Below are positions 1 through 15,378 of a DNA stretch of 20,000 nt, in pieces. A model generated the notes under the pieces. That model had not been told where the DNA came from. It did no database searches and was given only the letters and a program-made list of their open reading frames with translations. The translations under genes were made by a program, and so were the position numbers. How positions within the stretch are numbered: position 1 is the first letter of the stretch; each line of letters begins with the position of its first letter. Source of the DNA: Perkinsus olseni (lineage: Eukaryota); assembly GCA_013115125.1 (NCBI GenBank), contig JABANN010000128.1, positions 45,166 through 65,165 on the forward strand, given 5' to 3'.

Positions 1-401
1 GAAGGTCTTGACAAGGCTAACAGCTGCCGAGGGGTTGCAGTACTTCAACCATACTGCAGAGTTGAGGGCCGACCCTCCGGCGACTCTCTCCACGGACTCA
101 GCTAGTCTCTGATGATGCAGCCTGCGAACTACTAGGGCAGCGAATCTGCTACGTCCTCTCCCCACTCCGGCAGGTCGTCCTTCTCTAATCGACAGACGAT
201 ATCACAGAAGCTGTCTCCAATGACTGCTACTGCCACCGAAGGTGGTCGCGACTGATCAGAAGCAGGCCGGTGAGAAGACCACAGTGGCAGCGATAGCAGC
301 CCTACCTCCCGTCCACGTCTCCGCCTCTTGAACTCGCATATTGCGACAACACCCAAGGAAAGCACTGCTGCTCCTATCAACCGAGGGCGATCCACTTCCA
401 A
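1..401 (-). CDS. PfkB/ribokinase-family carbohydrate kinase, 5' part (runs off window start; start codon not resolved)
   Basis: ORF 132-401 gives VAVIGDSFCDIVCRLEKDDLPEWGED. Removing a 44-nt GT..AG intron (152-109) continues in frame as RLAESVERVAGGSALNSAVWLKYCNP, the PfkB N-terminal 'GG.a.N.A' motif. N-terminal hydrophobic stretch followed by KRRRR. Confidence 0.8.
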
Positions 402-593
402 ATCAAACTAAACGAACTGAGCTCGAGCGAAGCTACTCGAACGGTCCGGACGCACTCGCCGGTGAGGCCACCTCGGACGACCGACTAACAGCGCAACAAT
501 CTACAGATACAAACTTACTGCTTCAGTGATTGTGAGAGACTGGCTAAATGAAATTGAACACCATCAACGGCTGATACAGGGACGGCTGGCCCC

Positions 594-986
594 CTAGTCC
601 TTACTGAGGGACTTGTAGGCAGCCCCAGCAGCCGCACCAGCAGCCCGCCCTGCCGAGTCCAGAGCGGCATAGGTCTTGGCCTTCCTCTCAGGGGTGAAGT
701 GGTCGTCTATGAAGTCCTTGGTGGTGTGGTAGGCAGCAGAAGTAGCAGTACTAGCCACCCTCCACGTCCGGCCCAGCTGAGACCTATCCCCCCTACTAAG
801 GGAGAAACCGTCCTCTGACAGAGTGAGGAGGTAGTCATAACCCTCACAGGACTTCTGCCATGCATACTCCGAAGCCTTCTTGCACCTTTCGAAGGCTTCC
901 GAGTTGAAGATGTTATCGACGAATTCAGTGCTGCAGACCGAACTCTCAACTGCAGACATTTCTAGATCTGTCCTTAATGGCTGCAT
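594..986 (-). CDS. Hypothetical protein, 130 aa (paralogue of 1204-1977)
   Basis: Intronless ATG-to-stop ORF sharing a ~55-aa block (WQKSCEGYDYLLTLSEDG..DRSQLGRTWRVASTATS) with the neighbouring ORF. Alternative start MSAVESS at 959. Confidence 0.75.
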   Translation of the reverse strand: MQPLRTDLEMSAVESSVCSTEFVDNIFNSEAFERCKKASEYAWQKSCEGYDYLLTLSEDGFSLSRGDRSQLGRTWRVASTATSAAYHTTKDFIDDHFTPERKAKTYAALDSAGRAAGAAAGAAYKSLSKD

Positions 987-1203
987 TCAGGATGATATTA
1001 CGATACTCAATACCAACACAACCGTAGCTTGCGGAAGAAACAACAACGACTAGTGTAGAGAATCAATTGTGCTTTAAATCAGATAGGGTGTGGGACAAGG
1101 AGAACCGCTCACACCGCGATGTTTCTGCTGCTGCTGCTGCTGTCCTTGCCGGTCGTCCCACTGTGAAGAATGAGTAGTACTCTCCTCCAAGAGAGCAGCG
1201 CCT

Positions 1204-1977
1204 TTAATGGCTCCTCAGAGTGGACTTGTAGGAAGCGCTAGAGGCGGTCTTGCTGCCAGTAGAGGTACTGAAGGCCTTCCTGTTGTCAGCCACCTTCCTT
1301 CCGACACCAGGGAGAACAGGGGAAGGAGCCCCAGCCGTGTTATGGGCCTTAGCAGGGTCAACGGTACTAGCATCTCTCACCGCACCCACGGTCTTTGCCT
1401 CCTTCAAAACCTCCGCGGGCTTAGCCTCTTTCACAACATCAGTAGTAGCAGGAGCAGTCTGCTTAGTCTGCTTTACAGCATCAGCGGACTTAGTCTCGAC
1501 CTCCTTGATCAGACCAACAGGCTTCACGTCCTTCATGTCTTTATCGCCTCCGCCGCCGACCACTTTGTAGGCCTTCTCGACGTCCTTCACCACAGGGACC
1601 TTCTCGGCCTCGTCGGCCACTAGCTCTTCACCCTCCTTCTCAGCCGCTGTCTTTATACACTTCTCCTCCACCACATGCTTAGCCTCCTTCACATAACGGG
1701 GAGTGTTCTTCACAACAACACTAGTGGCGGTGCTCACAACGGACCAGCTCCGACCAAACTGAGACTTCCCATCTCTGTCCAAGTCCAAGCCTTCTTCCGA
1801 CCGAGTCAACAGGTAGTCGTAGCCCTCGCAGGTCTTCTGCCAAACATACCCAGCGGCCTCCTTAGCTTTGGCGTAGGCGTCAGAATCGACCACCTTGTGA
1901 TAGGTTTCCGAACCGCACATGGAGCCGTCGACACGAGCCTGCTCCTGTGCTGATAATTCCAATGGATAACTACTCAT
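1204..1977 (-). CDS. Hypothetical protein, 257 aa, with K/E/V/A-rich low-complexity tail (paralogue of 594-986)
   Basis: Intronless ORF; shared block WQKTCEGYDYLLTRSEEG..GKSQFGRSWSVVSTATS; loose V(V/L)KEAK repeats in the C-terminal half. Confidence 0.8.
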   Translation of the reverse strand: MSSYPLELSAQEQARVDGSMCGSETYHKVVDSDAYAKAKEAAGYVWQKTCEGYDYLLTRSEEGLDLDRDGKSQFGRSWSVVSTATSVVVKNTPRYVKEAKHVVEEKCIKTAAEKEGEELVADEAEKVPVVKDVEKAYKVVGGGGDKDMKDVKPVGLIKEVETKSADAVKQTKQTAPATTDVVKEAKPAEVLKEAKTVGAVRDASTVDPAKAHNTAGAPSPVLPGVGRKVADNRKAFSTSTGSKTASSASYKSTLRSH

Positions 1978-2133
1978 TACAAAATACTATGATACTGTGA
2001 AAAAAGTTGCGGTAGTAGGTTCTCGAAGTAGCGTTGAGGAAATGCAAGATTCGGCAAGATTGCAAGATTAGGCTAGAAGATACCGACCACACTTCAAGAC
2101 TGAACACAGTGCTGTGTATTGATAGAAACGTCG

Positions 2134-2660
2134 TCAGTCGCCGCGCCATATGTTGCCACACTTAACGCATCGGTAAAAGGTTGTCATCGGCTCATCAGCA
2201 CTCCTGATCTGCATCTGCTTGAAGTAAGCCCGGTTAGAGTCGCAGCCATCAGCAGGGCAAACAGCTGAGGAGAGGTGGTCATGGAGACGGACAGAGGGAG
2301 GCAAGAGTTCCTACCTTCAGTCTGCTGAACATCCTTCCATGCATCTGGTCCTCCGAGGACATCCTCAACCACAGGGCCACCTGGTAATGGCAAGAGAATG
2401 ACAAAAATGACAGCCGCCGGGATTGAACCCGGGTCTCTCGACAGACAGGGCTCACCTTCCTTGTGTAATATCTCCTTCTGCGTCAGCTTCTCGGAGATGG
2501 GGAATAAATAAGGACATGTCCGGCACCAGTACCTGCCACCGCGACCATCAACCCAAGTACAGCAACCTCTTCCCCCTCCTCCTTCTCACTTCATCGTATC
2601 ATGACCAGCTTGTAAGACTAGTAAATTCCCGCACGTCGGGCAAAACAACACTCCGGACAT
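2134..2660 (-). CDS. RPC11: DNA-directed RNA polymerase III subunit RPC11/RPC10 (POLR3K), 114 aa; exons 2660-2590, 2532-2456, 2380-2315, 2264-2134
   Basis: Manual splicing with GT..AG introns of 57, 75 and 50 nt gives MSGVLFCPTCGNLLVLQAGHDTMKYWCRTCPYLFPISEKLTQKEILHKEGGPVVEDVLGGPDAWKDVQQTEAVCPADGCDSNRAYFKQMQIRSADEPMTTFYRCVKCGNIWRGD*. It has two Zn ribbons, the C11-typical 'VEDVLGG..AW' and the TFIIS-like QIRSADEP acidic hairpin. Confidence 0.95.
2403..2485 (-). promoter_or_regulatory. tRNA-like Pol III element in RPC11 intron 2: B box/T-arm, T5 run and an A-box-like sequence in exon 2
   Basis: Minus strand GACCCGGGTTCAATCCCGGCGGCTGTCATTTTT. B box GGTTCAATCCC at 2429-2419 inside a CCGGG/CCCGG stem; T5 at 2407-2403; A-box-like TGACGCAGAAGG at 2485-2474. 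Confidence 0.55.
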
Positions 2661-2952
2661 TACTAAGAACAACTATTCCGTGCTTTCTGACACCTCTAGC
2701 TGTGGAACTCAGAAGCCTCGGTATGATAGAGAAATATAGCCATTATCAGCGGATATCAGGTTACAAGTTGCTTTCGTTGGTAGACGTACAGTGTTGTAGT
2801 GGAACGTAGCATCACCAGCCAGACACGACGTCTGGTGATGATGAAGGAAGAAGACGACGATGGGGAAGAAGAAGAAGGAACATGGGTGGCACGGGTCACC
2901 GGTACGGTAGACGTAATTCGACCACTCAATCTTCAAGCTGTATTTTACGTAT

Positions 2953-5011
2953 TCAGGCACTGCCCTCAGTTGCTACCTGGCCTGAAAGAAGGAATGGTGT
3001 TCCAGTATCTCCCCAAACCTCATATCAACGGCTCAAATTCCTGCCCAGGTTCGAACCCCACAACCACCATATGTTCTCTCGCCACCAATAATACCTTCTG
3101 TAGGTTTCTTCTCCGCCAGGGACTTCTTAGCGTTCTTCCCTCGGTATTTCTGTATGTTCTCCTTCCGCTTCGCCTGAGCTGCTGCCTGCTTCTCCTTGAC
3201 CTCTCTGCTCCTCGCCGCCCTACATACCACAACCATCACAACTCCTCCCCCCATCCCACCATCCTACCACTCCTCGCGTGACTTGTTCTTCTTCTTATCA
3301 ATCGCCTTCTGAGCCTTCCTCAACTTATGGACATCATCATGGACCTTCTCACCAGCAGCTCGCTTCATCGCCTGCCACAACACTCAACTGCCCCTTCCAC
3401 GCCCTTCAAAAGCTATCCCCATATCATGACTAGGTCGTGCTCAAGCTAGCTTCTCCTACACCCTACATTCACTCTGCTTCTATGGTCCCAAACTACAAGA
3501 CTCGAACTACAACCACCGCGACAGTGTACATATCGCCATCCCCGACAATACTACCCTCTCAATAGCCTTGTCTTGACTAAGTTTAACCCTCTCCTCTGCA
3601 GTGGATGCCTGGGTTATCTGCTGCTGCTCCTTCTCGGCCTGCTCTATCTCCTTCTCTAAGCGTTGCCGCTTGGAAACCTTCTTCTCCTTATGCTCCTCGA
3701 CTGAGAGATAGTGAAAAGCCGATACAACGATTCGAACCCACAACCTCGGCGAGGAAATCATCAGCGCCAACCCGCTCGGCCACATCGTCAAGATATTCCT
3801 ACCATCAGCGGCTCTCTTCTTGAAGTTGAAGGAGCTGAAGTCAAGATCTTCCTTAACGTTAGCCTTCTCCTCTAGCTCCTCCTCCTCCCTCTCCTTCCTC
3901 TTAGCCGCAATAGCTGCCTTCATCTCGGCCTTCTTCTTTCCACCATTCTTGGCCTTCTTTTTTCGCTCAGCAGCATCAGCCTTCTGCTTCGCTCTTCGAA
4001 GTCTCTTAGCCTCAGCAGCATCTTCACCCTGACAGAATGACGCTCAGCGTCCCCCCAATGGACGGGTGCCCGTCAGAGATCACTGACAGGAATTCTCCTA
4101 GACAACCTTGCCCCGCATGATTCGAGCTCAACCCAAAGATACGCGGGAACGATTGAATAGCATCCAAGCTACAGTACTGCTAACGGTTAGTCTGAGTTGC
4201 GGAATACCCGCGATATTTAACAATCATTGAACCCTACGGAAGTGTTCAATAGACTTCCCCTCTCGAATCCCAGAATCGAATTTTGCGCCCAAAAGTGGAT
4301 CCCGGGAGCGCTTTCTAAGCTCAGGAGAGCTCCATTGAAGGCCCGGAATGATCGGGCGAGCGCATCGACTACCTCCTCGTTCTCCTTAGCTGCCTTCTTC
4401 CACTCCTTCTGCGATTCCCGAGCCTCCCTGACCAACTCGAGAGATTCCAGAATAAGGGACCGTGCCGATTCTCCCACCTCAAAGCTTCGATTTTGGCGTG
4501 AAGTTTTTCTCGAAGCTCCGCACCAGATACGGGACGGGTGACTTCTGAGGACGGAAGGCGCAGTGAAGGCTACGACAGTCTGATGAACGCTCTGCGGAGG
4601 CATCCCCCTTCCCCTCTGTGGGCCACTCAAGAGCTACTAGGCTCGACAGGGAACATATCACGGCCACGACTCTACCCGTCTATTACTAGCTTTCTTCTTC
4701 TTGGCATTCTTCTTCGCCCCAGAGATCTTTTCCTGCTCAGCTTTTCGTTTGCTTAGAACCTCCTCCAACACCCGAGTAGTGGTCTTAGCATTGCGAGGGT
4801 CCAACTGCCTGCTGTGGAAGCCCGCCTCCTGTACTGTTAGCGGAGAATCGCCGAAGGTTATCGTTTGAAGGTACTGATGAGCCGGAATCAAATCGATCGT
4901 TTGATCGATTACGTCCCGTATCTCCCTATACGTGCTCCGAAGAGCCTGCTTGCTAGGTGCCTTGGACGAGGGCGCCTCTGGAGTCTTCTGCACTGATGAA
5001 GGGACAGTCAT
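2953..5011 (-). CDS. SURF6: SURF6/Rrp14-family nucleolar ribosome-biogenesis protein, multi-exon (stop at 2953 or 3033 depending on the last acceptor)
   Basis: Spliced segments: IDLIPAHQYL (Rrp14 N-terminal like), ELREKLHAKIEALR (~4544-4478), EDLDFSSFNFK, AMKRAAGEKVHDDVHKLRKAQKAIDKKKNKSREEW..AARSREVKEKQAAAQAKRKENIQKYR (SURF6 C-terminal domain pattern). Introns at 4372-4029, 3802-3701, 3554-3372 and ~3269-3221, and one starting at 3094; exon structure at 4545-4685 is uncertain. Confidence 0.85.
3048..3057. promoter_or_regulatory. Palindromic B-box (GGTTCGAACC) in the last predicted SURF6 intron
   Basis: Matches GTTCRANNC on both strands. On minus it is preceded by TGGCGA...GGTGGTTGTGG, as is the element at 3499-3538. 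Confidence 0.4.
3499..3507 (-). promoter_or_regulatory. B-box match (GTTCGAGTC) in SURF6 intron 3554-3372
   Basis: Matches GTTCRANNC. An imperfect A-box-like TAGTATTGTCGG starts 46 nt upstream (3553); T4 at 3411-3408. Confidence 0.4.
3714..3789 (-). pseudogene. Degenerate tRNA (Ser/Leu-type 5' end) retaining A box, B box and T4, nested in a SURF6 intron
   Basis: GACGATG-TGGCCGAGCGG-GTTGGCG...GTTGTGGGTTCGAATC-GTTGTATCGGC-TTTT. A box 3782-3772, B box 3738-3729; T8-to-G53 distance is 45 nt as in standard tRNA numbering. No proper anticodon stem, and the 3' T-stem strand is missing. Confidence 0.65.
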
Positions 5012-5339
5012 ATTGACGCTAAGTCAAACTACCACAGGCAAACACCGTTGAAGCCACAATCCTGCCAAACTCCACAAAAGTCCGGTGATAAAATTTTCAG
5101 CCACTCATCTTTATGATAATAATCGTAGTTCAATCGAGTTAGGCATCCCAAAGATGCCTCTCTATAAAGAGCTAAGAGCAATTCTCATTCACATCCACTG
5201 TGCGTGTATGGCTATTATTGTCATGAGTCGTTAAGTTCCGAGAATCCATCCAGGTCCTCTGAGGAATATATAATAAAACTTTCCGTCGTTGGTATGCTGC
5301 TGCCGCTGCCGCTGCGCACCACCTACAACAACAATGCAG

Positions 5340-6301
5340 CTTATCCGCTGGCCCTGTAGGGGTCGATCAGAAGGAAAACCCCAGGACGTAGCCACCCACG
5401 AATCTACCAAGCGCTCCTGATTGATATGAGAGTTCCATCAACATGAGACATTCAGTACGCTACCTCCCCTCACTGTGGAAGAGCCGCTGCCCGTTAAACT
5501 ACACTCGAGGAGCAGGAGGATTCCATCCCCGCCTCCCGCCTTGTCCCTTGCATTGAGTTGGACATCGGCAGGGCCCTAGGAGGCCCCATTCCCGGTGCCA
5601 TCACCGAGCTGCTAGTGATCAACATCCGCCGCAACTCTTCAATCTGTGCCTACACGCTGAGCCTGCTGCCCGTATCCTACCCATGAAGGATACTACTTCT
5701 AAGGCGGCCACGGTCTCCTGAAGCTCCTCAACATACCCAGCTTCGGTCTGGATCATCGCATCTTCGGTTGATGCAGAATAAGATGCTGATGACGATGGGC
5801 GAGGACCCGCAGCAGGAAGGGACCTACGTAGTAGCAACAGCATACGTGTGCCCGTCAACAGTGACCAGAGATAGCCTACCTCACGGGGTCCCCGTCATCA
5901 TCACACTCTCGGACGGGCCTCCATCGACGGCCATATCGAGGCTTCGCCCTCGACGGGCAGGTCAACACATCAACACTCGTGAGTGCTCCAAAGGGTCTGA
6001 GTAGAACCCAGTACCCCAACCACCTCCCGGACCACGGCTACTACATCCCCTCCCAGAAGCAGTCCTCCCTAATAGCCTCTTCAGTGTCCGTCAAGTCCTC
6101 CTCCTCTCCTTCACTCATGTCCGTAGTAGGGGTGGCCGAGCAAGTACTATCTCGGTCACCATAGACATCCCTGTGAAGCTGACTGGCGAACCCTCGGACG
6201 TCTGCAGCGACCTCTCGAAGGAAACAAGGCCACATCAGAAGCTACAAAGGCGTCGATCAATCGGACCTCGACCCAACCCAACAGCAGCGGCTCCCGTCCA
6301 T
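5340..6301 (-). CDS. Hypothetical multi-exon protein with acidic stretch and short coiled coil (boundaries approximate)
   Basis: Open segments LMWPCFLREVAADVRG..SEGEEEDLTDTEEAIREDCFWEG and EDAMIQTEAGYVEELQETVAALE|IEELRRML, separated by GT..AG intron-like stretches. No family recognised. Confidence 0.5.
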
Positions 6302-6425
6302 CACTCAGAGACAAATACTGTTAAGTACAACATGACGAGGATGAAGGCAATCTTCAATCGAGACTCGGCGAGATGAACTTAAGAAATGCTGGATACAATA
6401 GCGGACAGCAGCTAATTCGGCAGGA

Positions 6426-7435
6426 CTACTCATTTTTGACGTACTTCGGAGGACAAAGGAAACTAAATACGTTTTCACCAGCTACTTGGCGGACCGTCCG
6501 CGTCAACCTCTGGTCAGCCCCGCAATGGTTCGTTACAAGCTCGGCAATATCGCTGACAATTTGCACATTCAAGTTGAAGTAGTTGTGCCGTATCGAGTGA
6601 ACGTTCTGCTGCATGTGACGACAGTCCATCACGTCAATTCTGCTGCGGCCATAGGGAAGAGCCCCACTCGGGCGAGCGCACACCGGCCAAACCTTCCTCC
6701 CTATAACCTTATCCCGTGAGAAGACCTCCGAGCACAGCAGTGCGAAGTCCCTGTCGTCACAGTAGAGAGTCATCCGATCTGCCACGTCCAACACGCGGGG
6801 CACATGAACCTCCTCAAAGCCAGCTACGGGAAAGTCCGCATTGACGAGGACCACATTGGACAATCTCAGAACCCCCATACCCTCCGGATCGGTGAACCGT
6901 CGATCCTCGTACTCCTCGAGAATCATAAAGAAGAGATGTGCTGCCATGCTGTGGACGAGGCAGTGGACATGCTCGTATCCCTTCCTCCGCAGGTCCAATA
7001 GGAAGTCTAGAAGGTCCGTCGTGAACTGTCCTATACAGCCCTTCGCCTTACCGTACGACAGCGTCTGCCCCGTGGCTTGGGAGAATACAAAGGGATGAAT
7101 ATGAGAAGGGAACCTCCCCAGGGCCAGCATTTGACCCAGCCGTAGCAAAGCGTATTCAGTAGGGCAGTTGTAGCCATGAAGGAACACCAGTGCCTCGCTC
7201 GAAGGCTTAGTAACCGGCAGGGGCTCCAGGACGTACATAGAACGACCCACTATCTTCACCCTGGCACTGCACTCATAACCTCCCTTTACTTCCAGGCCCC
7301 GATTCGGCCATAGATGGGCTGTTATCCGCCTGTCCTCGTCCTCCAGGCGACTCGTTAAAGGGTTACCTCCACCACGAGATGGCGATGATACACCTACGAT
7401 GGTGGTCCCGACTGTGATAGTACAACCCTACTCGA

Positions 7436-7488
<53 letters not shown>

Positions 7489-9452
7489 TAGGTGTCAATT
7501 TCGGCACTTCTAAGGTTCCTCCGCAAAGTTCTCAGGGATTCACCGATCTCCCTTGTCTCCTGGCCTACCCTGTCAGTAACCTAACAGCCCTCTGATCACA
7601 ACCCCAACCTCATCGCGACACCTCACCTGCGGCAGGTGGGCATAGAAGTCGCCCCCAGCGCAGCACTCCACTCCCACCACCCCATACCGCATGCCTTCCT
7701 CCGAGCGTTGAGGGCAGAAGTGGGTCTCCCGGAGGTCCATCTCCGCCCTGCTAGTCGCATACCTGTCCAAATCGATCATCACGACCACGCCAGCATTCCC
7801 CCCATTACATAATGAAGGTTTGCACCGACAACGAACCTGATCCGAACTCCCGGGCTCGGAAGGGGCCCACAGGCTCCCCGTGACAGAAGCGTCCCATCAA
7901 GCATTCCCCATGGAAGGAATCATCCCGCCACTCACCCGTACCATGCGGCCGTCCCTAACGCGAATCATGAGCTGGACCGAGGCCAGGAGATTGAGCAGAC
8001 CTCCTTGTCCGTAGAGCCCGTGTATCTACATCTCCTCCAAGTACGAGGCGTGAAGATACCATATGGGATGTACCGGAACCACCCATCACCTTCGTGCTGC
8101 AACCGGAACCTAGAACGTCCATGAAGGTCCTTCGCGCTCGCTTTGGACGGTTCTAGAGGGTGCTTCACAACTCCGTTAACAATTCAAAGGTCTTGGGCTG
8201 ACGCGCAAATTTTTGTAGATAAAAATTTGAGAGAATACGACCAATGGCACAAGGAGGCAAGGTGTCCAAAATGGCGCTGTGAATCGGCGACTGCAACTGG
8301 TGAGACCCTTTACCACCAATGCTTGGCCAGCCAAGCCTCTGATATGTTGTGGATGAGCAAGGGGTACAACCAATGCAATAAGGCGTAGGCCAGGAAGAGG
8401 GCTAACTCTATGCTCATGATGAGGATCAACACCAGACGCTCGCTCTGGAAGGGGAGTAGGGACCAGGGAGAGGAGCCCATCAACCGACTACCCGTGTTGG
8501 CTTGAGGAGAAAAAAAAAAGTCCGATCCGAGTCGGGGTCATAGACCCAAGCCAGCCACATCATACCGAGGTACCTGGCAGGGTATCCTCACAGGAGCGCT
8601 GGCAGGTGGGAATACTACAGGGTGGTGAGCATGAGGGTGGGGATGACGAACTGTTGTGACTGGGCTACACTAACCATCGCCGCCACTGCAACCAGGCTGG
8701 TCACCACCACTGGGGCCCACAAGGGCACCGCCCAACGCTGAGAGACGCCCTTCGACCATGGGAACTGGGGTGGGAGGAAGGCCTACGTTGGTGACACCCG
8801 AGGAGGTGATGTTGAGGCCTAGCTGCTGGCAAAGCACGATAAATAGACAGAAGATGAGCACCGCCTGTAGTACCCCTTGGCTGACAGAACGTGCCCTGAT
8901 GGGACGATGGAGGACCTTAGGAGAGACTGAGTCGAGGAGAAGAGTAGTAACAGGGTGGGACAGTGGAAGAAATTACTTTCACGGCCCCGCTACTCTTGAT
9001 GCATGGGATTTATGGTACTAGTAGTACCACATTAATACAAGTAAAATAGATCATGTATTTTTAGGCGAGAAATATTCCCAGAGATCTATAGACCTATAAA
9101 CGGCTGCCTTGAGAGTGCTCCGAGGACTGCTCACCGAACGTCGGGAAGTGTAGAGTGTGGAAAGCGGTCAGAACCGGACTCAGAATCAATCTAGGGAGCG
9201 CTACTGATGTCACAATAGATCCATTGAACGCCTCCGTTATGACCGAGTCAGAGTAGACCCGCCCCCCCCCTTATCCCATCCTACTACCCTCAAGAGCCTC
9301 CTTCGTTCCATAATACGGAAGGTTGATGCCAGAGAATCAACGCACACTCTACCTACCGTAACAATCGGAACTACCATGGAAAGGTAGGGGTACTCACCCG
9401 CCCCTAGATGATCGGTTTCAGAGTAGTAATAGTCCGACTTGGAATCGTCCAT
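6426..9452 (-). CDS. Multi-exon membrane protein with C-terminal alpha/beta hydrolase (DUF900/esterase-lipase-like)
   Basis: Last exon (open from ~7411 to 6426) has ALVFLHGYN, CLVHSMAA (nucleophile-elbow-like Ser), VVLVNAD, LYCDDRDFAL and HNYF. Upstream exons encode TM helices (AVLIFCLFIVLCQQL; LVLILIMSIELALFLAYALLHWL). Probable start MDDSKSDYYY at 9452; internal exon borders are not fully resolved. Confidence 0.75.
7438..7488. repeat. (CTA)17 / (TAG)17 microsatellite
   Basis: Perfect trinucleotide repeat read directly from the sequence. Confidence 0.97.
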
Positions 9453-10446
9453 ATTCAACTCAGATGGTACAGTGAAGGGGCTCCTAACCCACGGGTACCC
9501 CGAAGGCCACCACCCTCTCACTAGTACCTCTCCTCGCCCTTATCAGCCATAATGATACTACTACTACTGGAGCTTCTCGATTCGCCTTGTATTATGCCAT
9601 TATGCAGTTCGGTGGCCATTCAAAACTAGTCAACCCTTCTTGTATCACTAAGAGACCCCCATCATCCTCATGACCAGCAACGCCTTTTCGTCACTCGGGC
9701 TCGCCATTCTGATCGATAACCTCACTGAGATCCGTGGATGTCATCGAATGAACGGCGATTCTAGGTGCTTGCTTTGAATTCAGTAGCGGATTATCGGGCA
9801 CCTACTGCGGCACCTCTTCGCTGTTTATGTGGTCAGTTCTGTCAAGAAGTAGCTACCTTTGAGGGAATGCAAGCTCGAATGTGCTAGGCGTAACGTCAGA
9901 TCAATTCAGGGTGAACCATCTGGTGCGAGAGGGCAGCTTTACGGCGAAGACGGCTGTTTCGGATGGTACCACACTCAGAGATGCTGCCACGTACTTCGTC
10001 GGTCGCTCTTGGGGGAATGACGATCCAAAAACAGGTCAACGAAAATAACATATTTCAGCACCTACTTGCAAGAGTGAGATGATAACTATTCCCACCACCA
10101 CGGTTGTTACCACCGGGGTTTGTAGTGCCAGCGAAGTACGTCTTTCCGAAGTGTTCAGTGGCAGTACAGGGGTAGCGACCTAGCATGGCAGGCCCTTCAC
10201 TTCTGAGTGCATTCCCGTTGTCCACTGCCGTTCCCAGTGCCGCGACTAAACTCCGTTATCGTATTGAGCATTGCGGTAGTCACGCTATCTTGCAAGGTTG
10301 TTTCTATTCGTCCTTGTGTAGGTCTTGGAGTTCACTTGGTGCCGCTCGTTTTGTCTAATGGATGCCGGCTCGCGTTTTACCACTTTTTCCATCAGTTTCG
10401 CTACGTTGTGTAATCCCTGCATTCCCGGTTGTCCGTAACATCCTCA

Positions 10447-12081
10447 ATGGGTGGCCTAGGTTTAGCCGACCTAGATCGGGTCTACGAGGTAGCAGCAGCA
10501 GAAGAGGAGGAGGAGGAGGAGGAGGAGTCTGGTCGCCACCATCATCGCAGCAGCTGCAGTATCATCCATCACGATAATAAGGGGAAGAACCGCTCCATTA
10601 CGGAGCGTCGGGGACAGAGCCATGACAGCGCTCTCCGTGGGGTTTCGTTATCGGATGTCGCTGCACGTTGGTTGATATTTTCCGGCCCTACGGGGACCAG
10701 CTCGACCTACGACCTTTCTCGTCCTGTGGACCATTTAGACCTATTCCTTAGTCACTCCTGGGGCGCTAACATGTTTTGGAAGCATCTCTCGTTGATCACC
10801 GCCTACTACATGCATATCGGTTACATCGTCATGCTCACTTTGTCGATCTCGCTGTCCATCATGATCTACTTCCTTCCTAGCGACAGAGAAGTCGTGGCCT
10901 ACTGTGTCGAGATAGGTGGCCTGGTCATCGTTTGCCTTGCTGTTGCCTTTGGTTGCTTCTTTACACGCTTGTTTCACAAGGACCCAGTGGTCTTTCTCGA
11001 CAAGTGTTGCATCTCCCAGACAGACACTGGACTGAAGTACATCGGTATTCATCACATCAGCTCATTCCTGAGCAGGTCTGATGGCCTCGTCATACTCTGG
11101 TCGACCGACTACTTTTCTCGGCTTTGGTGTGTCTTCGAGCTGGCTGGGTTCCTCAGGACCCACGAACCGGGGAGAGTAACCTTCATCTCTAATATGCAGA
11201 CTAAGTTCTGTATGTTGGTGGCGATCTGTGAAGTTGCTATTTTGGTGATAATGATGTCGATTGACCTTTCTATGGTGGCCAACCGTATCGAGTCTTTTAC
11301 TCCGCTCATTCTTTATCTGGCTCTTGAAGCTGCAGTCACGGTCATCATCAGTACCATTGTTTGCTTTATCTTTATCCCGGCCAAGGCCAACCTACAGGCT
11401 CAGATCACCAACTTCACTGTAGCTAGCGCTCAGTGTACCCTGCAGGAAGACCGTGCGTTCATAAGGGAGAGCATCACCAAGTGGTACGGATCCGAGGCGC
11501 AGTTTGAAGAGAATCTTCGAGCCCATTGGGACGAGATCGCCTCTGCTCAAATGCCGATATGGACTCTCAGCAGAAGAGGTGTCTACATTGTGGTAGCTCC
11601 CTTCCTTGCCTACGGCATCCCAGGTCTGGCCTTCTCCTTGTCAGCCGATGGTCTTCATCCTGTCCCTCAGTGGTGGATCCCCTTAAGAGACATGCTCATA
11701 CTGACCATCATGCTGGGGTGTCGAACTCCACTCATCGCCAACGTGGCTTACAAACTCTACGCTATCAATACATCACGTAGTCGCTTGTCAAGGCTTGTAC
11801 TATATACGGTTATTGTTGCCTTTGGATTGGCTTATGATGCTACTCTGGTCGTCGGCGGCGGGGCCGCACTGTTTAGTAACACTACCCGAGACCAGATCAA
11901 GATACCAGAGCCTTATGGTTGGGTATTTGTCATACCGGTGGTGTTTGTGCTGGTATACCTGTATATAACATACACTAGGCATACCAATCTGAGCATCGAC
12001 GTCGCCGCAGCAACAGCAGTGGCACTGCCTGAGCTGTCCCTATCGCAACAGGATACTCCCACCACCTCATCATCAGTGTAG
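10447..12081 (+). CDS. Intronless multi-pass membrane protein with TIR/HET-like domain
   Basis: Long ORF (first ATG at 10447). Motifs DLFLSHSW, VFLDKCCISQ, LVILWSTDYFSRLWCVFEL and AQCTLQEDRAFI. Two TM helices inserted after FLSHSW, about 6 further TM helices, and an N-terminal poly-Glu. Confidence 0.8.
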   Translation: MGGLGLADLDRVYEVAAAEEEEEEEEESGRHHHRSSCSIIHHDNKGKNRSITERRGQSHDSALRGVSLSDVAARWLIFSGPTGTSSTYDLSRPVDHLDLFLSHSWGANMFWKHLSLITAYYMHIGYIVMLTLSISLSIMIYFLPSDREVVAYCVEIGGLVIVCLAVAFGCFFTRLFHKDPVVFLDKCCISQTDTGLKYIGIHHISSFLSRSDGLVILWSTDYFSRLWCVFELAGFLRTHEPGRVTFISNMQTKFCMLVAICEVAILVIMMSIDLSMVANRIESFTPLILYLALEAAVTVIISTIVCFIFIPAKANLQAQITNFTVASAQCTLQEDRAFIRESITKWYGSEAQFEENLRAHWDEIASAQMPIWTLSRRGVYIVVAPFLAYGIPGLAFSLSADGLHPVPQWWIPLRDMLILTIMLGCRTPLIANVAYKLYAINTSRSRLSRLVLYTVIVAFGLAYDATLVVGGGAALFSNTTRDQIKIPEPYGWVFVIPVVFVLVYLYITYTRHTNLSIDVAAATAVALPELSLSQQDTPTTSSSV

Positions 12082-13743
12082 TTCGGCGGAGTTGTGGTAT
12101 TACTGATAATGATGAGGGCTACTGTATAGGACTGGCATGTTCAGACAACTCTATCGTATTTCCCACTCTGTTACCTGCCTGGTCCCGTCATCAGCAGCAT
12201 CAGTGGCCGTAGTGTCGTTATTTCCATTATTATTGAATTAATCAAGGGTTAATATATCCTTCAACGTTCCTCACCTATACTTCCTTCACTGCTTTCTACC
12301 CGACTCTCTCCGCCTTGCGTTTCGGTACAGACCACTGACACGCGGCATGCTTCATTTGGAGGAAGCTCTGGGGTCTGGAATGAACTACCAAGACTGCTGT
12401 CTACCGTAAAACTTCTTCTCCTCTTCGCGGGTCTTTGAGGGTGGAATTGCTACAACGCGTAAAAACCATCGTGTTCTCAAACAGGTCTTTGCTACCGGCG
12501 GTCCAGGACGCTCCAGTATAACGTCGATGTTAACTCTAGGAGTACCAGTACGTCTTCAGGAGAGTGCCTAGTGTCCCCGCAAACAAGCTGGGACTCGCCT
12601 TCTACGACGGTTTTTCGTTCATGCATGGGGAAATGGTTGAGGCCTTTGATATCTTATTTCCGGCAAGAGCAGACGGCTATACTCGTGCATAGTGACACTG
12701 AGGTCTAGGGTGTTGGTTGTATGAAGATGCACCCGTGCGGGACAGGAACATCATCTCACAAACTAACTTTCTGAACCTCTCGTCCTGCTTTTTTGACGAA
12801 TGCCACTTCGCCTCTCCCGCTGATGAGACGCGGGGCTGCTTGCGGGCCGTGGTATTTCCGCTGCCATCATCGTGCGACGCGAGGTGTCGACGGAGACCAG
12901 CGGCGGCATTATCATCATCGACGCCGGTCTTGTAGCGCTAATTTTAACGGTAAATCGGAGCTACCCCTCGGCGAAGTGCACTTGGAAACGCTCTTACTGT
13001 GCGGCAACTATTTCAAGTGCACCAGGAGAGGTAATACTCAGGATTCAATAGACGCGGGATGAATTCCAAGCAAGCATCTTCAGGGATATGTTTGTCCTTG
13101 GCACCAGTTGGAAACTAGTAATTGCCTTTTCCGATTTTCGGACGGGTTTCTCGCTTTTCGTTCCTGGAAGGCAGGGCTTGGATTCATCCGCAATAAAGGC
13201 GTTCTCGCTTGCTGTGGGTTTTCCGTCCTTGGGACCCAAGGCTTGGGTTTTGGCCATGCCGTGCAACCAAAGAAAGACTTAACTTGTGCATCGATTAGAA
13301 TGGCGCGCGCGATTATCCCGGTTGTCCCAGGACAGTACTCACGCCTGCAGACATCGTTGCTAGCTGGGACGTACAATGGTTGAATAGCCTCCTAGCTGCC
13401 AAGATGCTCAGTGGCCGATAGACGCAGATTAAATTTTAGAGCTGGCTCGGAAGGATGGGAATTCGCCGGCGGTTGGAATTGTTTAAGACATTTTTTCGGG
13501 GCATGGTAGGAACAATTCTGTCACAGTCGAGCCAGCTAAGCCGTGAAAGTGTGGACTGAGCAACTGCGGAATTAAGTCCTGGATGGGGGTGGAATTGCCG
13601 CTAGCTTTCCGTCTCTCGAGCACTGCGAAGCGTTGTTGTCACAATGGGGTCGAGTACCACGCTAGCGCTAGAACTGTGGTTTCACGCGATGAGAGATTAC
13701 AACTAATTTTATTTTATAAAGTTTCTCGGTTTCTCTTTTGTTG

Positions 13744-15378
13744 ATGCCCCGGTTTCACTCGGCACTCACGGAGCAGAGCAGCAAGCCTTTGTCGTGGACT
13801 GACGCCTCTGGTAATACCTATTCTTACTATGAGCATCCTTTCTTGAAGTCCGTCCTCTTCATCTTGGGGCAAGAGCTGTGTGAACGATTAGCTTACTACG
13901 GTCTTACGCCCAACTTGCAGACTTTCCTGAAGGAGTTTGCTGGTATGGATGATAGTGGAGCCAACTCGTACATTTCTATTTTCAACTCGATCATTTATTT
14001 GACCCCCCTAGTGTCAGCCGCTCTGTCTGATACTATCCTCGGTCTTTACGTCACTATCGTCGTATTCTCTCTGATCTATGCATGTGGGTTGGTTCTACTA
14101 ACGCTATCAGCTATCGAATCTATTTCCGAGCAATGGATGATTGATGTGGCACTGCTTTTCCTCATCGCACTTGGTGCTGGTGGTATCAAGAGTTGTGTCA
14201 ACATCATGGGTGCTCAGCAGTTCCATCCTGAGCACCACAGGGACCTCATCACCAGGTATTACACCTACTTCTATGCTACCATCAATATTGGTAGTATCAT
14301 CGGTGGTATCGTCTCCCCCATCCTCGTGCAGGAGTGCTCGTTCTTCGTTGCCTTTCTCTTCATCACTATCGTCTTCCTGTGTGCCTGTGCTGTCTTCCTT
14401 GCGGGTGGCATACTGGGGAGGTATGTGAAGCCGAAGCCACAGGGTTCGGCGGTACTGAAGGTCGTGGAGGTCATCGGGGTGGCCTGTACCAAGTTCTCTT
14501 TCGAGAAGTGCAAGAAGTCTAAGGGTGGACGGTTTGAAGATTCCTTTATCGAAGACACGAAGTGCTTATTGCGGTTGGTGCCCATGTTCACCATTGTGAT
14601 TCCCTTCCAAATGGTATACACGCAGATGACCACTGCTTATTTAACGCAGGCCACTAAGATGGACACCAACACCTTCGGTTGGGATATGCCTGCTGCTATG
14701 TTCCAAAACGTGGATCCCTTCGCTGTCATCATCAACTCGCTGATACTGGATCAAGTCATATTCCCCTTCTTGCAAAGGAGGGACAGGATGCCTTCAGTGT
14801 TGGGCAGGTTCTGTCTGGGTTGCATTGCTGGTGCTTGCTCTCTTCTCTGTGCTATGGGGTTGGAGTATGCTGTAATGGCAAAGCCTTTGTTTACGATCTC
14901 TGCATGGTGGCAGGTCCCACAGTTCTGGCTTATCGCTTTGGGTGAGTGTTTCCTATTTGCTACTTCATACGAAGTTGCCTTCACCTACTCGCCCGGGCAA
15001 TTGAAAGCATGTGCCTCTGGTTTGAACTTACTATTCTTCTCCTTTGGCTCCATGCTTTCGGCTGTTTTATTCCAAGTCTGCTCACCGTGGTTGCCGGATT
15101 TCAAGCCTGACGATCCTTCTACTTGGGGCGGATCTCATTATGATTACTACTACATGGTTCTCATCGGTTTCTGTGTCTTGGGTGCCATTGGTAGCCTGGC
15201 TCTCATTCCCTACTTCAACAGGGTCGCTGCGGCCAACTTGGCGGTTGCTGACCGCGATGCCGAGCAGCCGAAGAAGGAAGCTGGTCCTGCGGATTCCTGT
15301 GATTTTGACGGCGAGTCGTCGGAGTCAGCGGTGAAGTCAGACCGTGTTGATGATTTGGAGAACCAGGTGTTGGCATGA
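13744..15378 (+). CDS. Proton-dependent oligopeptide transporter (POT/PTR family, MFS), intronless
   Basis: ELCERLAYYG (ExxERFxYY motif), LIALGAGGIKSCVNIMGAQQF, YFYATINIGS, WQVPQFWLIALGE and ~12 hydrophobic segments. First ATG at 13744. Confidence 0.95.
   Translation: MPRFHSALTEQSSKPLSWTDASGNTYSYYEHPFLKSVLFILGQELCERLAYYGLTPNLQTFLKEFAGMDDSGANSYISIFNSIIYLTPLVSAALSDTILGLYVTIVVFSLIYACGLVLLTLSAIESISEQWMIDVALLFLIALGAGGIKSCVNIMGAQQFHPEHHRDLITRYYTYFYATINIGSIIGGIVSPILVQECSFFVAFLFITIVFLCACAVFLAGGILGRYVKPKPQGSAVLKVVEVIGVACTKFSFEKCKKSKGGRFEDSFIEDTKCLLRLVPMFTIVIPFQMVYTQMTTAYLTQATKMDTNTFGWDMPAAMFQNVDPFAVIINSLILDQVIFPFLQRRDRMPSVLGRFCLGCIAGACSLLCAMGLEYAVMAKPLFTISAWWQVPQFWLIALGECFLFATSYEVAFTYSPGQLKACASGLNLLFFSFGSMLSAVLFQVCSPWLPDFKPDDPSTWGGSHYDYYYMVLIGFCVLGAIGSLALIPYFNRVAAANLAVADRDAEQPKKEAGPADSCDFDGESSESAVKSDRVDDLENQVLA

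What the first reader, a model, noticed from the sequence alone, without database searches (positions are those of the whole stretch)
2381..3802. Cluster of four intronic Pol III B-box/tRNA-like elements in the adjacent RPC11 and SURF6 genes
Seen: four GTTCRANNC matches within 1.4 kb (2429-2419, 3057-3048, 3507-3499, 3738-3729). All are readable in the host-gene sense and all lie in predicted introns that are longer than the ~50-nt local norm (75, 54 or 113, 183, 102 nt). Three are followed by T4/T5 within the same intron. At even base composition the motif is expected about once per 8 kb per strand. Known: B boxes bind TFIIIC; yeast TFC6 is autoregulated through the ETC6 B box, and a Pol III-transcribed MIR in a mammalian POLR3E intron interferes with host transcription. 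Inference: this may be an undescribed system that couples Pol III/TFIIIC activity to expression or splicing of Pol III and ribosome-biogenesis genes, or a family of intron-nested Pol III small RNAs or tRNA-derived inserts.
Basis: partly seen in the sequence, partly recalled or inferred. Interest (0 to 1): 0.85.

Follow-up and report, generated by a model that had tools for sequence, protein, structure and literature searches.

The report
Decayed tRNA-like inserts in Perkinsus introns
Four introns of two neighbouring genes in the clam parasite Perkinsus olseni carry worn-down pieces of tRNA-gene-like sequence, which probably record how these introns arose or grew rather than a proven regulatory switch.

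Summary
Four GTTCRANNC matches lie on the minus strand at 2420-2428, 3048-3056, 3499-3507 and 3729-3737. All four sit in introns confirmed by RNA contigs (75, 113, 183 and 102 nt) of an RPC11 gene and a SURF6 gene. In the 1,164 nt of intron in these two genes, 0.13 matches are expected and 4 are seen; 0 of 5000 shuffles reach 4.

The organism is not a fungus. It is Perkinsus olseni: both mRNAs carry the Perkinsus spliced-leader end, and public P. olseni protein models match.

The 102-nt intron holds a complete but decayed tRNA-gene-like unit: A box, B box 33 nt later, 6 of 7 acceptor pairs, and T4 at the tRNA terminator position. The 75-nt intron holds a tRNA 3' half, a perfect 11-nt B box and T5 at position 74. 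It is also bracketed by a 12-13-nt direct repeat. The other two introns hold only T-arm-like fragments.

None is a working tRNA: ARAGORN at default settings and the Rfam tRNA model are both negative, and no intron folds unusually well.

Best reading: relics of tRNA-gene-derived insertions that built or enlarged these introns. The proposed Pol III/TFIIIC feedback remains untested. Environmental RPC11 genes show no B-box excess. No genome or orthologous introns could be reached.

The parts
2953..5011 (-). SURF6-family gene CDS (358 aa, 8 exons, 7 introns). The mRNA contigs span 2727-5030, with the SL acceptor AG at 5030-5029.
   Evidence: Joints in 4 of 4 RNA contig sets; spliced ORF; Pfam SURF6 E=3.7e-6 on one exon; identical to the SURF6 part of P. 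olseni model P0070.
2134..2660 (-). RPC11 (Pol III subunit C11/RPC10) CDS (114 aa, 4 exons, 3 introns). SL acceptor AG at 2674-2673.
   Evidence: Joints; spliced ORF; TFIIS ribbon E=1.1e-19 and RPB9 ribbon E=9e-5; 113 of 114 residues identical to MMETSP transcript P0001, and named RPC10/RPC11 by sources.
2381..2455 (-). RPC11 intron 2 (75 nt, phase 1, in frame and stop-free). It consists almost entirely of a tRNA 3'-half-like insert.
   Evidence: Joint in 4 of 4 runs, with 5 ambiguous letters at the junction; sequence.
2419..2429 (-). B box GGTTCAATCCC, a perfect match to the 11-nt consensus GGTTCRANNCC.
2403..2407 (-). T5 run starting at tRNA position 74 when the B box is numbered 52-62. This is where a tRNA gene's Pol III terminator sits.
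2445..2457 (-). 5' copy of the direct repeat, AGGTGAGCCCTGT. It spans the 5' splice site of RPC11 intron 2.
   Evidence: Boundary-repeat score 10, against 3-8 for the other 14 introns.
2371..2382 (-). 3' copy of the direct repeat, AGGTGGCCCTGT. It spans the 3' splice site and the start of the next exon.
2982..3094 (-). SURF6 intron 7 (113 nt) with the palindromic B-box-like site GGTTCGAACCT at 3047-3057. A T3 run starts at tRNA position 72.
3372..3554 (-). SURF6 intron 5 (183 nt) with the weakest site, AGTTCGAGTCT, at 3498-3508 (2 mismatches to the 11-mer).
3701..3802 (-). SURF6 intron 4 (102 nt, phase 1, in frame and stop-free).
3717..3789 (-). 73-nt decayed tRNA-like unit: acceptor stem 6 of 7 pairs, D arm, weak anticodon stem, unpaired T stem.
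   Evidence: ARAGORN finds it only at 85% of its thresholds. Not found by ARAGORN at default settings or by the Rfam tRNA model.
3772..3782 (-). A-box-like TGGCCGAGCGG, ending 33 nt before the B box begins.
   Evidence: The A-B composite occurs once in the window and in 0 of 2000 simulated windows.
3728..3738 (-). B box GGTTCGAATCG (1 mismatch to the 11-mer).
3714..3717 (-). T4 run starting at tRNA position 73.
4029..4372 (-). SURF6 intron 3 (344 nt) with a further degenerate site, GGTTCAATGAT, at about 4223-4233. That site is the 3' arm of a 7-bp hairpin.

Best explanation
The four B-box matches are the T-arm remnants of tRNA-gene-like DNA sitting in sense orientation in introns of SURF6 and RPC11. 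These are two tightly spaced, SL-trans-spliced genes of Perkinsus olseni.

- Intron 3701-3802 holds a whole but decayed tRNA-type Pol III unit (A box, B box, T4).
- Intron 2381-2455 holds a tRNA 3' half (T arm, 11 nt of acceptor strand plus discriminator, T5).
- Introns 2982-3094 and 3372-3554 hold only short fragments resembling a variable loop plus T arm.

Shown: the tRNA-like piece makes up most of each of the first two introns. Removing it would leave 29 nt of intron 3701, or 13 nt of repeat in intron 2381.

Inferred: these introns were created or enlarged by insertion of tRNA-gene-derived DNA. That DNA could be a pseudogene fragment captured at a break, or a tRNA-headed mobile element. 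For RPC11 intron 2, an AGGT-containing direct repeat supplies both splice sites, so splicing removes the insert plus one repeat copy.

Inferred: the elements have since decayed and have no demonstrated present function.
For: Enrichment. 4 sense matches against 0.13 expected in 1,164 nt of intron; 0 of 5000 shuffles reach 4. All four are in RNA-confirmed introns.

tRNA-gene geometry.
- With the B box numbered 52-62, T5 starts at position 74 (intron 2381) and T4 at position 73 (intron 3701).
- B box followed by T4 within 8-14 nt occurs at 2 distinct sites, against a mean of 0.07 per shuffled window.
- An A box followed 25-55 nt later by a B box occurs once, inside intron 3701. It occurs in 0 of 2000 simulated windows with the strict pattern, and in 27 of 2000 with a relaxed one.
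- Acceptor stem pairs at 6 of 7 positions, at places fixed by the A and B boxes.

Relatedness. Of 105 intron pairs, the two best local alignments both join B-box introns and extend beyond the motif: i3372-i3701 with 24 of 30 identities, and i2982-i3701 over 16 columns. Each beat all 300 shuffles.

Insertion signature. RPC11 intron 2 has the direct repeat AGGTG(A)GCCCTGT at both boundaries. Its score is 10, against 3-8 for the other 14 introns, and the junction has 5 ambiguous letters.

Decay. ARAGORN at default settings finds no tRNA. The Rfam tRNA model is silent even when a single intron is searched. No intron folds unusually well: z from -2.64 to +2.12, and -0.56 to +1.06 for the four B-box introns.
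Against: - No genome was held, so I could not show a source tRNA, other copies or a repeat family.
- Inside the window no further copy exists outside the two genes.
- Similarity among the elements outside the B box is modest. In a flank-only test only 1 of 6 upstream pairs reaches P=0.005, one reaches 0.046, the rest are 0.13 or worse, and no downstream flank matches. GGTTGT-type words are common in local introns generally.
- Two of the four elements (introns 2982 and 3372) show little beyond the motif itself.
- The relaxed ARAGORN hit is not evidence alone: simulated windows give 2.4 such hits per 20 kb.
- Only one intron has a boundary repeat.
- Clustering of four elements in 3.3 kb, with none in about 16 kb of flank, is not what a randomly dispersed repeat predicts.
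- The motif and region were chosen after looking, in a very large scan.
Confidence: 0.55

Rival explanations
1. Functional TFIIIC/Pol III sites. TFIIIC, or a full Pol III complex, binds the intronic B boxes and impedes Pol II or splicing on the SURF6-RPC11 unit. This would give feedback from Pol III factor level onto a Pol III subunit and a ribosome-biogenesis gene.
For: - One site is a perfect 11-nt B box and two have 1 mismatch.
- Intron 3701 has a full A box-B box-T4 layout that Pol III could in principle use.
- The elements cluster in a Pol III subunit gene and its upstream neighbour, which lie on one strand about 55-65 nt apart.
- Precedents exist. A Pol III-occupied MIR in the first Polr3e intron interferes with host transcription (PMC5358760, abstract seen). 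TFIIIC regulates TFC6 (PMC3334521, abstract seen).
Against: - No occupancy, small-RNA or conservation data could be obtained.
- T stems and cloverleaf are decayed, as expected without constraint.
- 44 environmental RPC11 loci show 2 sense and 2 antisense matches in 16,390 nt (0.12 per kb per strand), the same as their flanks at 0.144. This test has low power because those loci have few introns.
- The Polr3e MIR is antisense to its host; these elements are in the sense orientation.
Confidence: 0.12
2. One ancestral tRNA-bearing intron was copied to other positions of the same primary transcript, for example by reverse splicing and recombination. On this view the B boxes in SURF6 introns 4, 5 and 7 are inherited from one event, not from independent insertions.
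For: - The two best of 105 intron-intron alignments link exactly these three introns and extend 9-13 nt upstream of the motif.
- The upstream-flank test gives P=0.005 and 0.046 for two of the three pairs.
- All three introns lie in one gene.
Against: - Similarity is short (16-30 nt) and does not extend to the intron ends. Full-intron MAFFT alignment is poor, with 49% mean column identity.
- The element sits at different offsets from the 5' splice site.
- The RPC11 element differs in T-loop and flanks: P is 0.31 or worse for all six of its flank comparisons.
Confidence: 0.1
3. Chance plus local intron composition. These introns are G+T-rich and share words such as GGTTGT and GGGTTC. A very large scan would then pick out a coincidental cluster.
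For: - The whole-window count is unremarkable: 8 against 4.53, and 19 of 200 shuffles reach 8.
- Introns are 33% G and 28% T.
- GGTTGT is in 5 of 10 introns and GGGTTC in 4.
- The finding was selected after looking. Two of the four sites have nothing tRNA-like beyond the motif.
Against: - Composition-preserving shuffles of the same introns never reach 4 (0 of 5000).
- Independent features agree with tRNA-gene geometry: an A box at the right distance (0 of 2000 simulated windows), T4/T5 at positions 73-74, and 6 of 7 acceptor pairs.
Confidence: 0.08
4. The long SURF6 introns host small nucleolar or other processed RNAs, and the B-box-like words are incidental parts of them.
For: - SURF6 is a nucleolar protein gene with several introns two to seven times the local norm.
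- Intron 3701 contains a C-box-like CUGAUGA, which gave weak partial hits to C/D snoRNA models.
Against: - Those hits score 10-16 bits against gathering scores of 50-75 and cover only the C box. No D box follows.
- No Rfam family reaches its threshold.
- No intron has an unusually stable fold.
Confidence: 0.03

Closest known systems
tRNA pseudogenes and tRNA-derived SINEs nested in introns (for example the MIR in the first intron of mammalian Polr3e, PMC5358760)
   Same: - Internal A-box/B-box promoter remnants inside an intron of a Pol II gene.
- The host gene is a Pol III subunit gene.
- The elements are decayed relative to a real tRNA.
   Different: - Here the elements are in the sense orientation; the Polr3e MIR is antisense.
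- They end in a T run at the tRNA terminator position rather than continuing into a SINE body and tail.
- No dispersed family, Pol III occupancy or conservation has been shown.
- The organism is a perkinsozoan, for which my searches found no SINE or tRNA-derived repeat report.
Extra-TFIIIC (ETC) sites and TFC6 autoregulation in budding yeast (PMC3334521, PMC3395662; abstracts seen)
   Same: Isolated B boxes without a working tRNA gene, near or in a gene of the Pol III apparatus.
   Different: - As I recall (not checked in any call here), the yeast sites are promoter-proximal or intergenic and conserved among related yeasts.
- These sites are intronic, only 1 of 4 is a perfect 11-mer, and neither binding nor conservation is known.
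Introners and other insertion-made introns (PMC9860276, PMC12130899; invasive intronic elements of Amoebophrya, PMC7789003)
   Same: - In RPC11 intron 2 the intron equals an insert plus one copy of a short direct repeat that supplies the splice sites.
- Several element-bearing introns occur in one gene, as the PMC12130899 main text describes for Amoebophrya, another member of the dinoflagellate-perkinsid lineage.
   Different: - Introners are defined by many near-identical copies across a genome. Here the copies are only weakly alike, and no genome could be searched.
- I saw no terminal inverted repeats.
- 'tRNA' and 'Perkins' have no occurrence in the main text of PMC9860276 or PMC12130899, and 'SINE' has none in PMC12130899 (not searched for in the other). 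Supplements were closed.

Membership tests
Functional tRNA gene | Cloverleaf detectable by standard tRNA finders | tested here: not met
   - ARAGORN at default settings finds 0 genes in the window, and 0 at 95% and 90% thresholds.
- The Rfam tRNA model gives no hit at E<=10 on 2.6 kb or on single introns.
- The T stem of the 73-nt element is essentially unpaired.
Type 2 (tRNA-type) Pol III transcription unit | A box, B box 30-60 nt downstream, and an oligo-T terminator after the gene end | tested here: met
   Met for intron 3701 only: TGGCCGAGCGG, then 33 nt, then GGTTCGAATCG, then T4 at position 73. Intron 2381 has a B box and T5 but no A box. Introns 2982 and 3372 have the B-box-like word only.
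Type 2 (tRNA-type) Pol III transcription unit | TFIIIC/Pol III occupancy and a Pol III transcript | not testable with these tools
   Only assembled RNA contigs were available, and they cannot show small RNAs, their ends or their levels.
tRNA-derived SINE | tRNA-related head joined to a body and a 3' tail, present as many dispersed copies with target-site duplications | tested here: inconclusive
   - A head-like part is present.
- No body or tail was recognised, because a T run follows directly.
- No further copies occur elsewhere in the 20-kb window.
- The genome was not available.
- One element has flanking direct repeats.
Introner (intron-generating transposon) | Many near-identical intron copies genome-wide | not testable with these tools
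   No genome was held. Within the window the candidate copies share only 16-30-nt blocks.
Introner (intron-generating transposon) | The insertion plus a target-site duplication provides the splice sites | tested here: inconclusive
   Consistent for RPC11 intron 2: AGGTG(A)GCCCTGT at both boundaries, the best score of 15 introns. Not seen at the three SURF6 introns.
ETC site (TFIIIC-only B box) | Consensus B box bound by TFIIIC without Pol III, conserved among relatives | not testable with these tools
   By sequence, 1 of 4 sites is a perfect 11-mer, 2 have 1 mismatch and 1 has 2 mismatches. Binding and conservation could not be tested.
Intronic C/D box snoRNA | C box and D box brought together by a terminal stem | tested here: not met
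   Only partial C-box hits of 10-16 bits, against gathering scores of 50-75. No D box lies downstream in intron 3701.
RPC11 / C11 subunit of RNA polymerase III (host gene) | N-terminal RPB9-type and C-terminal TFIIS-type zinc ribbons in a protein of about 110 aa, with nearest relatives named RPC10/RPC11 | tested here: met
   Spliced ORF of 114 aa. PF01096 E=1.1e-19 and PF02150 E=9e-5. Source names RPC10/RPC11 among the hits.
SURF6 / Rrp14 family (host gene) | Pfam SURF6 domain | tested here: met
   PF04935 at 27.3 bits, against a cut-off of 23.1, on a single 34-aa exon. Perkinsus orthologues carry PF04935 and the name 'Surfeit locus protein'.

The most novel reading that the evidence does not exclude
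Perkinsus may have introns made from tRNA-gene-type Pol III units. On this reading, a tRNA-headed mobile element or captured tDNA inserts in the sense orientation into coding sequence and is spliced out using an AGGT-containing duplication. The surviving B boxes then still recruit TFIIIC. The SL-trans-spliced SURF6-RPC11 pair, which includes a Pol III subunit gene, would thereby be throttled by the Pol III machinery itself.
Probability: 0.12. Interest if true: 0.75.

Novelty: new member of a known kind. Interest (0 to 1): 0.4.

Why it matters
If the relic reading is right, this locus is a small, clear example of introns that consist mostly of tRNA-gene-derived DNA. One of them is bracketed by a splice-site-bearing direct repeat. 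It comes from a lineage (Perkinsozoa) where I found no report on how introns arise. That makes a genome-wide question cheap to ask: what share of Perkinsus introns carry Pol III promoter remnants?

If the B boxes instead prove conserved and occupied, the locus would join Polr3e and TFC6 as a case where the Pol III apparatus regulates its own components. It would be the first such case inside a trans-spliced gene pair of an alveolate parasite.

As it stands, this is an interesting sequence relic without shown function.

Tried and rejected
- Genome-wide intron scan: impossible, because no genome is held for this window.
- Rfam on 1800-4400 and on the single introns 3701-3802 and 2381-2455: no tRNA and no family near its threshold. 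The only hits were snoRNA, miRNA and lncRNA noise at 5-19 bits.
- Relaxed ARAGORN: finds the 73-nt element at 85% thresholds, but simulated 20-kb windows give 2.4 such hits each. I do not count it as independent evidence.
- Intron folding: z-scores from -2.64 to +2.12 across 15 introns, and -0.56 to +1.06 for the four B-box introns. No structured RNA is indicated.
- MAFFT alignment of five long introns: poor, so no clear common element is defined.
- Sensitive blastn of eight introns against the window: no extra copies of the tRNA-like parts. The only notable hit is a 58-nt, 71% match of intron 4029 to 9189-9245.
- Orthologous introns via metagenome contigs: 80 RPC11-like loci were fetched, the best at 69% protein identity and none Perkinsus. 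I dropped 36 loci with only partial matches. The remaining 44 show no B-box excess.
- Orthologous introns via mis-annotated proteins: the P. marinus, P. chesapeaki and P. olseni models all splice these introns out, so they give no intron sequence.
- RNA contigs: they confirm splicing but cannot show small intronic RNAs. Lack of contig cover over the introns is not evidence either way.
- Literature: no paper links Perkinsus with introners beyond passing mentions, with SINEs or tRNA-derived repeats, or with tRNA features of the P. olseni genome. The introner surveys do not mention Perkinsus in their main text, and their supplements, which list species, were closed.
- A first locus search with a 42-aa exon was rejected as too short.
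Full report
WHAT IS THERE

GTTCRANNC matches the minus strand at 2420-2428, 3048-3056, 3499-3507 and 3729-3737. The window holds four more matches. One is the palindromic plus-strand reading of the second site. Three lie far away, at 11718, 15019 and 19039. Over the whole window this is not unusual: 8 against 4.53 expected, and 19 of 200 shuffles reach 8.

I laid RNA contig sets from four public runs on 1-7400. Their splice joints define every intron of the two genes in 4 of 4 runs. After GT..AG adjustment:
- RPC11 introns are 2265-2314 (50 nt), 2381-2455 (75 nt) and 2533-2589 (57 nt).
- SURF6 introns are 2982-3094 (113), 3220-3267 (48), 3372-3554 (183), 3701-3802 (102), 4029-4372 (344), 4428-4477 (50) and 4545-4686 (142).

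All four motifs are intronic.

In the 1,164 nt of intron in these two genes, composition-preserving shuffles give 0.13 matches, and 0 of 5000 reach the observed 4. The five confirmed introns of the flanking genes have none.

HOST GENES AND ORGANISM

Joining the exons gives a 114-aa protein with an RPB9-type N-terminal ribbon (E=9e-5) and a TFIIS-type C-terminal ribbon (E=1.1e-19). It also gives a 358-aa protein whose single 34-aa exon already passes the Pfam SURF6 cut-off. Database relatives are named RPC10/RPC11 and 'Surfeit locus protein'.

The same nine unaligned letters sit at the 5' ends of both mRNAs: at 5030 in 4 of 4 runs and at 2674 in 1 of 4 runs. Read on the gene strand and joined to the genomic AG, they equal the 3' end of the Perkinsus spliced leader PmaSL1. 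PmaSL1 differs from the dinoflagellate leader at exactly the position seen here (passages read in PMC3101222, and PMC9399869).

P. olseni protein models are identical or nearly identical to the window's products. The P. marinus and P. chesapeaki models differ. So the window is P. olseni or a very close strain, not a fungus.

SURF6 contigs end at 2727-2739, and the RPC11 leader acceptor is at 2674-2673 on the same strand. The two genes are therefore about 55-65 nt apart and may share a primary transcript. That last point is inference.

ANATOMY OF THE FOUR ELEMENTS

I number the B box as tRNA positions 52-62.

Intron 3701-3802
- It holds TGGCCGAGCGG, then 33 nt, then GGTTCGAATCG, then 11 nt to position 73, where a T4 run begins.
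- The 7 nt before the A-box region pair with the 7 nt before the T run at 6 of 7 positions.
- An A box followed 25-55 nt later by GGTTCRANNC occurs once in the window. It occurs in none of 2000 simulated windows, and a looser pattern occurs in 27 of 2000.
- The T stem is unpaired and the anticodon stem is weak.

Intron 2381-2455
- It holds a perfect 11-mer, GGTTCAATCCC, with a T stem that pairs if the loop lost one base (read directly from the sequence).
- Exactly 11 nt follow, ending in A, and then T5 at position 74.
- There is no room for an A box.

Introns 2982-3094 and 3372-3554
- Both hold GGTGGTTGT, followed by GGG or by A, directly before the GTTCGA of the motif, with 1 and 2 mismatches to the 11-mer.
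- Intron 2982 has a T3 run at position 72. Intron 3372 has a T3 run at position 68.
- The 2982 site is palindromic and reads better on the antisense strand.
- A fifth, weaker site, GGTTCAATGAT, lies in the 344-nt intron.

B box followed by T4 within 8-14 nt occurs at two distinct sites in the window, against 0.07 expected.

NOT WORKING tRNAs OR STRUCTURED RNAs
- ARAGORN at default settings finds nothing.
- It reports the 73-nt element only at 85% of its thresholds, a setting that gives 2.4 hits per simulated window.
- The Rfam tRNA model is silent even when a single intron is searched.
- No intron folds unusually well.

RELATEDNESS AND ORIGIN

Among 105 intron pairs, the two best local alignments link i3372 with i3701 (24 of 30 identities) and i2982 with i3701. 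Both extend beyond the motif and beat all 300 shuffles.

With the motif masked, only the upstream 16 nt keep a signal. P is 0.005, 0.046 and 0.13 for the three SURF6 pairs, and nothing is seen for the RPC11 element or for any downstream flank. GGTTGT-type words are frequent in local introns anyway.

So the three SURF6 elements may share a source, either a tRNA type or one ancestral intron. The case is modest.

RPC11 intron 2 is bracketed by AGGTGAGCCCTGT at the 5' splice site and AGGTGGCCCTGT at the 3' splice site and following exon. This is the strongest boundary repeat among the 15 introns, scoring 10 against 3-8.

Taking out the tRNA-like part would leave 29 nt of intron 3701 and only the repeat of intron 2381. 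From this I infer that the insertions made these introns, rather than landing in older ones. For intron 2381, splicing removes the insert plus one repeat copy.

THE REGULATORY IDEA

The abstract of PMC5358760 describes the Pol III-occupied MIR in Polr3e, though that MIR is antisense to its host. The abstract of PMC3334521 describes TFIIIC regulating TFC6.

Nothing I could run supports the same mechanism here. From 80 metagenome loci encoding RPC11-like proteins, I kept the 44 with near-full-length matches. Their gene spans hold 2 sense and 2 antisense motifs in 16,390 nt, the same rate as their flanks. This is a weak test, because those genes have few introns and none is a Perkinsus relative.

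I could not test conservation in P. marinus or P. chesapeaki. No genome is held, and all public protein models splice these introns out.

LITERATURE

I found no report of introners, SINEs or tRNA-derived repeats in Perkinsus. The two large introner surveys do not mention Perkinsus or tRNA in their main text.

VERDICT

The best reading is decayed tRNA-gene-derived inserts that built or enlarged four introns of the SURF6-RPC11 pair in P. olseni (confidence about 0.55). Pol III/TFIIIC feedback stays an open, testable minority reading (about 0.12).

The clustering of four elements in 3.3 kb, all or nearly all in the sense orientation, remains unexplained by simple dispersal. It is the main reason the locus deserves the genome-wide and cross-species checks listed under next steps.

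Noticed in passing
window 5029-5030 and 2673-2674 (minus strand): Both mRNAs carry the same unaligned 5' letters, which match the end of the Perkinsus spliced leader. SURF6 contigs end at 2727-2739, only about 55-65 nt upstream of the RPC11 leader acceptor. The two genes may therefore form one trans-spliced transcription unit.
   Followed up: partly
window 2381-2455 and 3701-3802: Both tRNA-like introns are multiples of three (75 and 102 nt) and have no in-frame stop. Retention would add 25 and 34 residues instead of truncating the proteins.
   Followed up: no
window about 600-9540; proteins P0002, P0003, P0070, P0072: Public Perkinsus gene models at this locus are fused. P0070 (1136 aa) joins upstream genes to SURF6. 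P0002 joins SURF6, RPC11 and the downstream gene. P0003 joins the last RPC11 exons to the downstream gene. The RNA contigs show separate, tightly packed genes.
   Followed up: partly
window 4299-4354 versus 9189-9245 (minus strand): A 58-nt stretch of the 344-nt SURF6 intron matches a second place in the window at 71% identity (E=0.003 within the window). This may be a piece of a dispersed repeat.
   Followed up: no
window 4226-4250: The degenerate B-box-like GGTTCAAT in the 344-nt intron is the 3' arm of a 7-bp inverted repeat (ATTGAAC ... GTTCAAT).
   Followed up: no
window 7426-7484: A trinucleotide microsatellite (ACT/CTA repeats, about 60 nt).
   Followed up: no
window 2533-2589, 3372-3554, 4545-4686, 5323-5502: Local introns share other short words. 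GTCGCGGTGG occurs in RPC11 intron 1 and SURF6 intron 5. TGATATG occurs in 3 of 10 introns. GGTAGA(G/T)TCGTGG occurs in introns 4545 and 5323. Together with the G+T richness (33% G, 28% T), this hints at a common intron vocabulary or shared ancestry.
   Followed up: partly
window 2863-2864, 3182, 1247: One RNA contig set (X19) differs from the window by three single-letter changes and a 3-nt insertion in the SURF6 3' untranslated region. These are most simply strain differences.
   Followed up: no
window 10414-12081 and 13720-15378 (plus strand): Two long uninterrupted ORFs of 555 and 552 aa. From reading its sequence alone, the second looks like a proton-dependent oligopeptide transporter. Neither was checked against a family library.
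   Followed up: no
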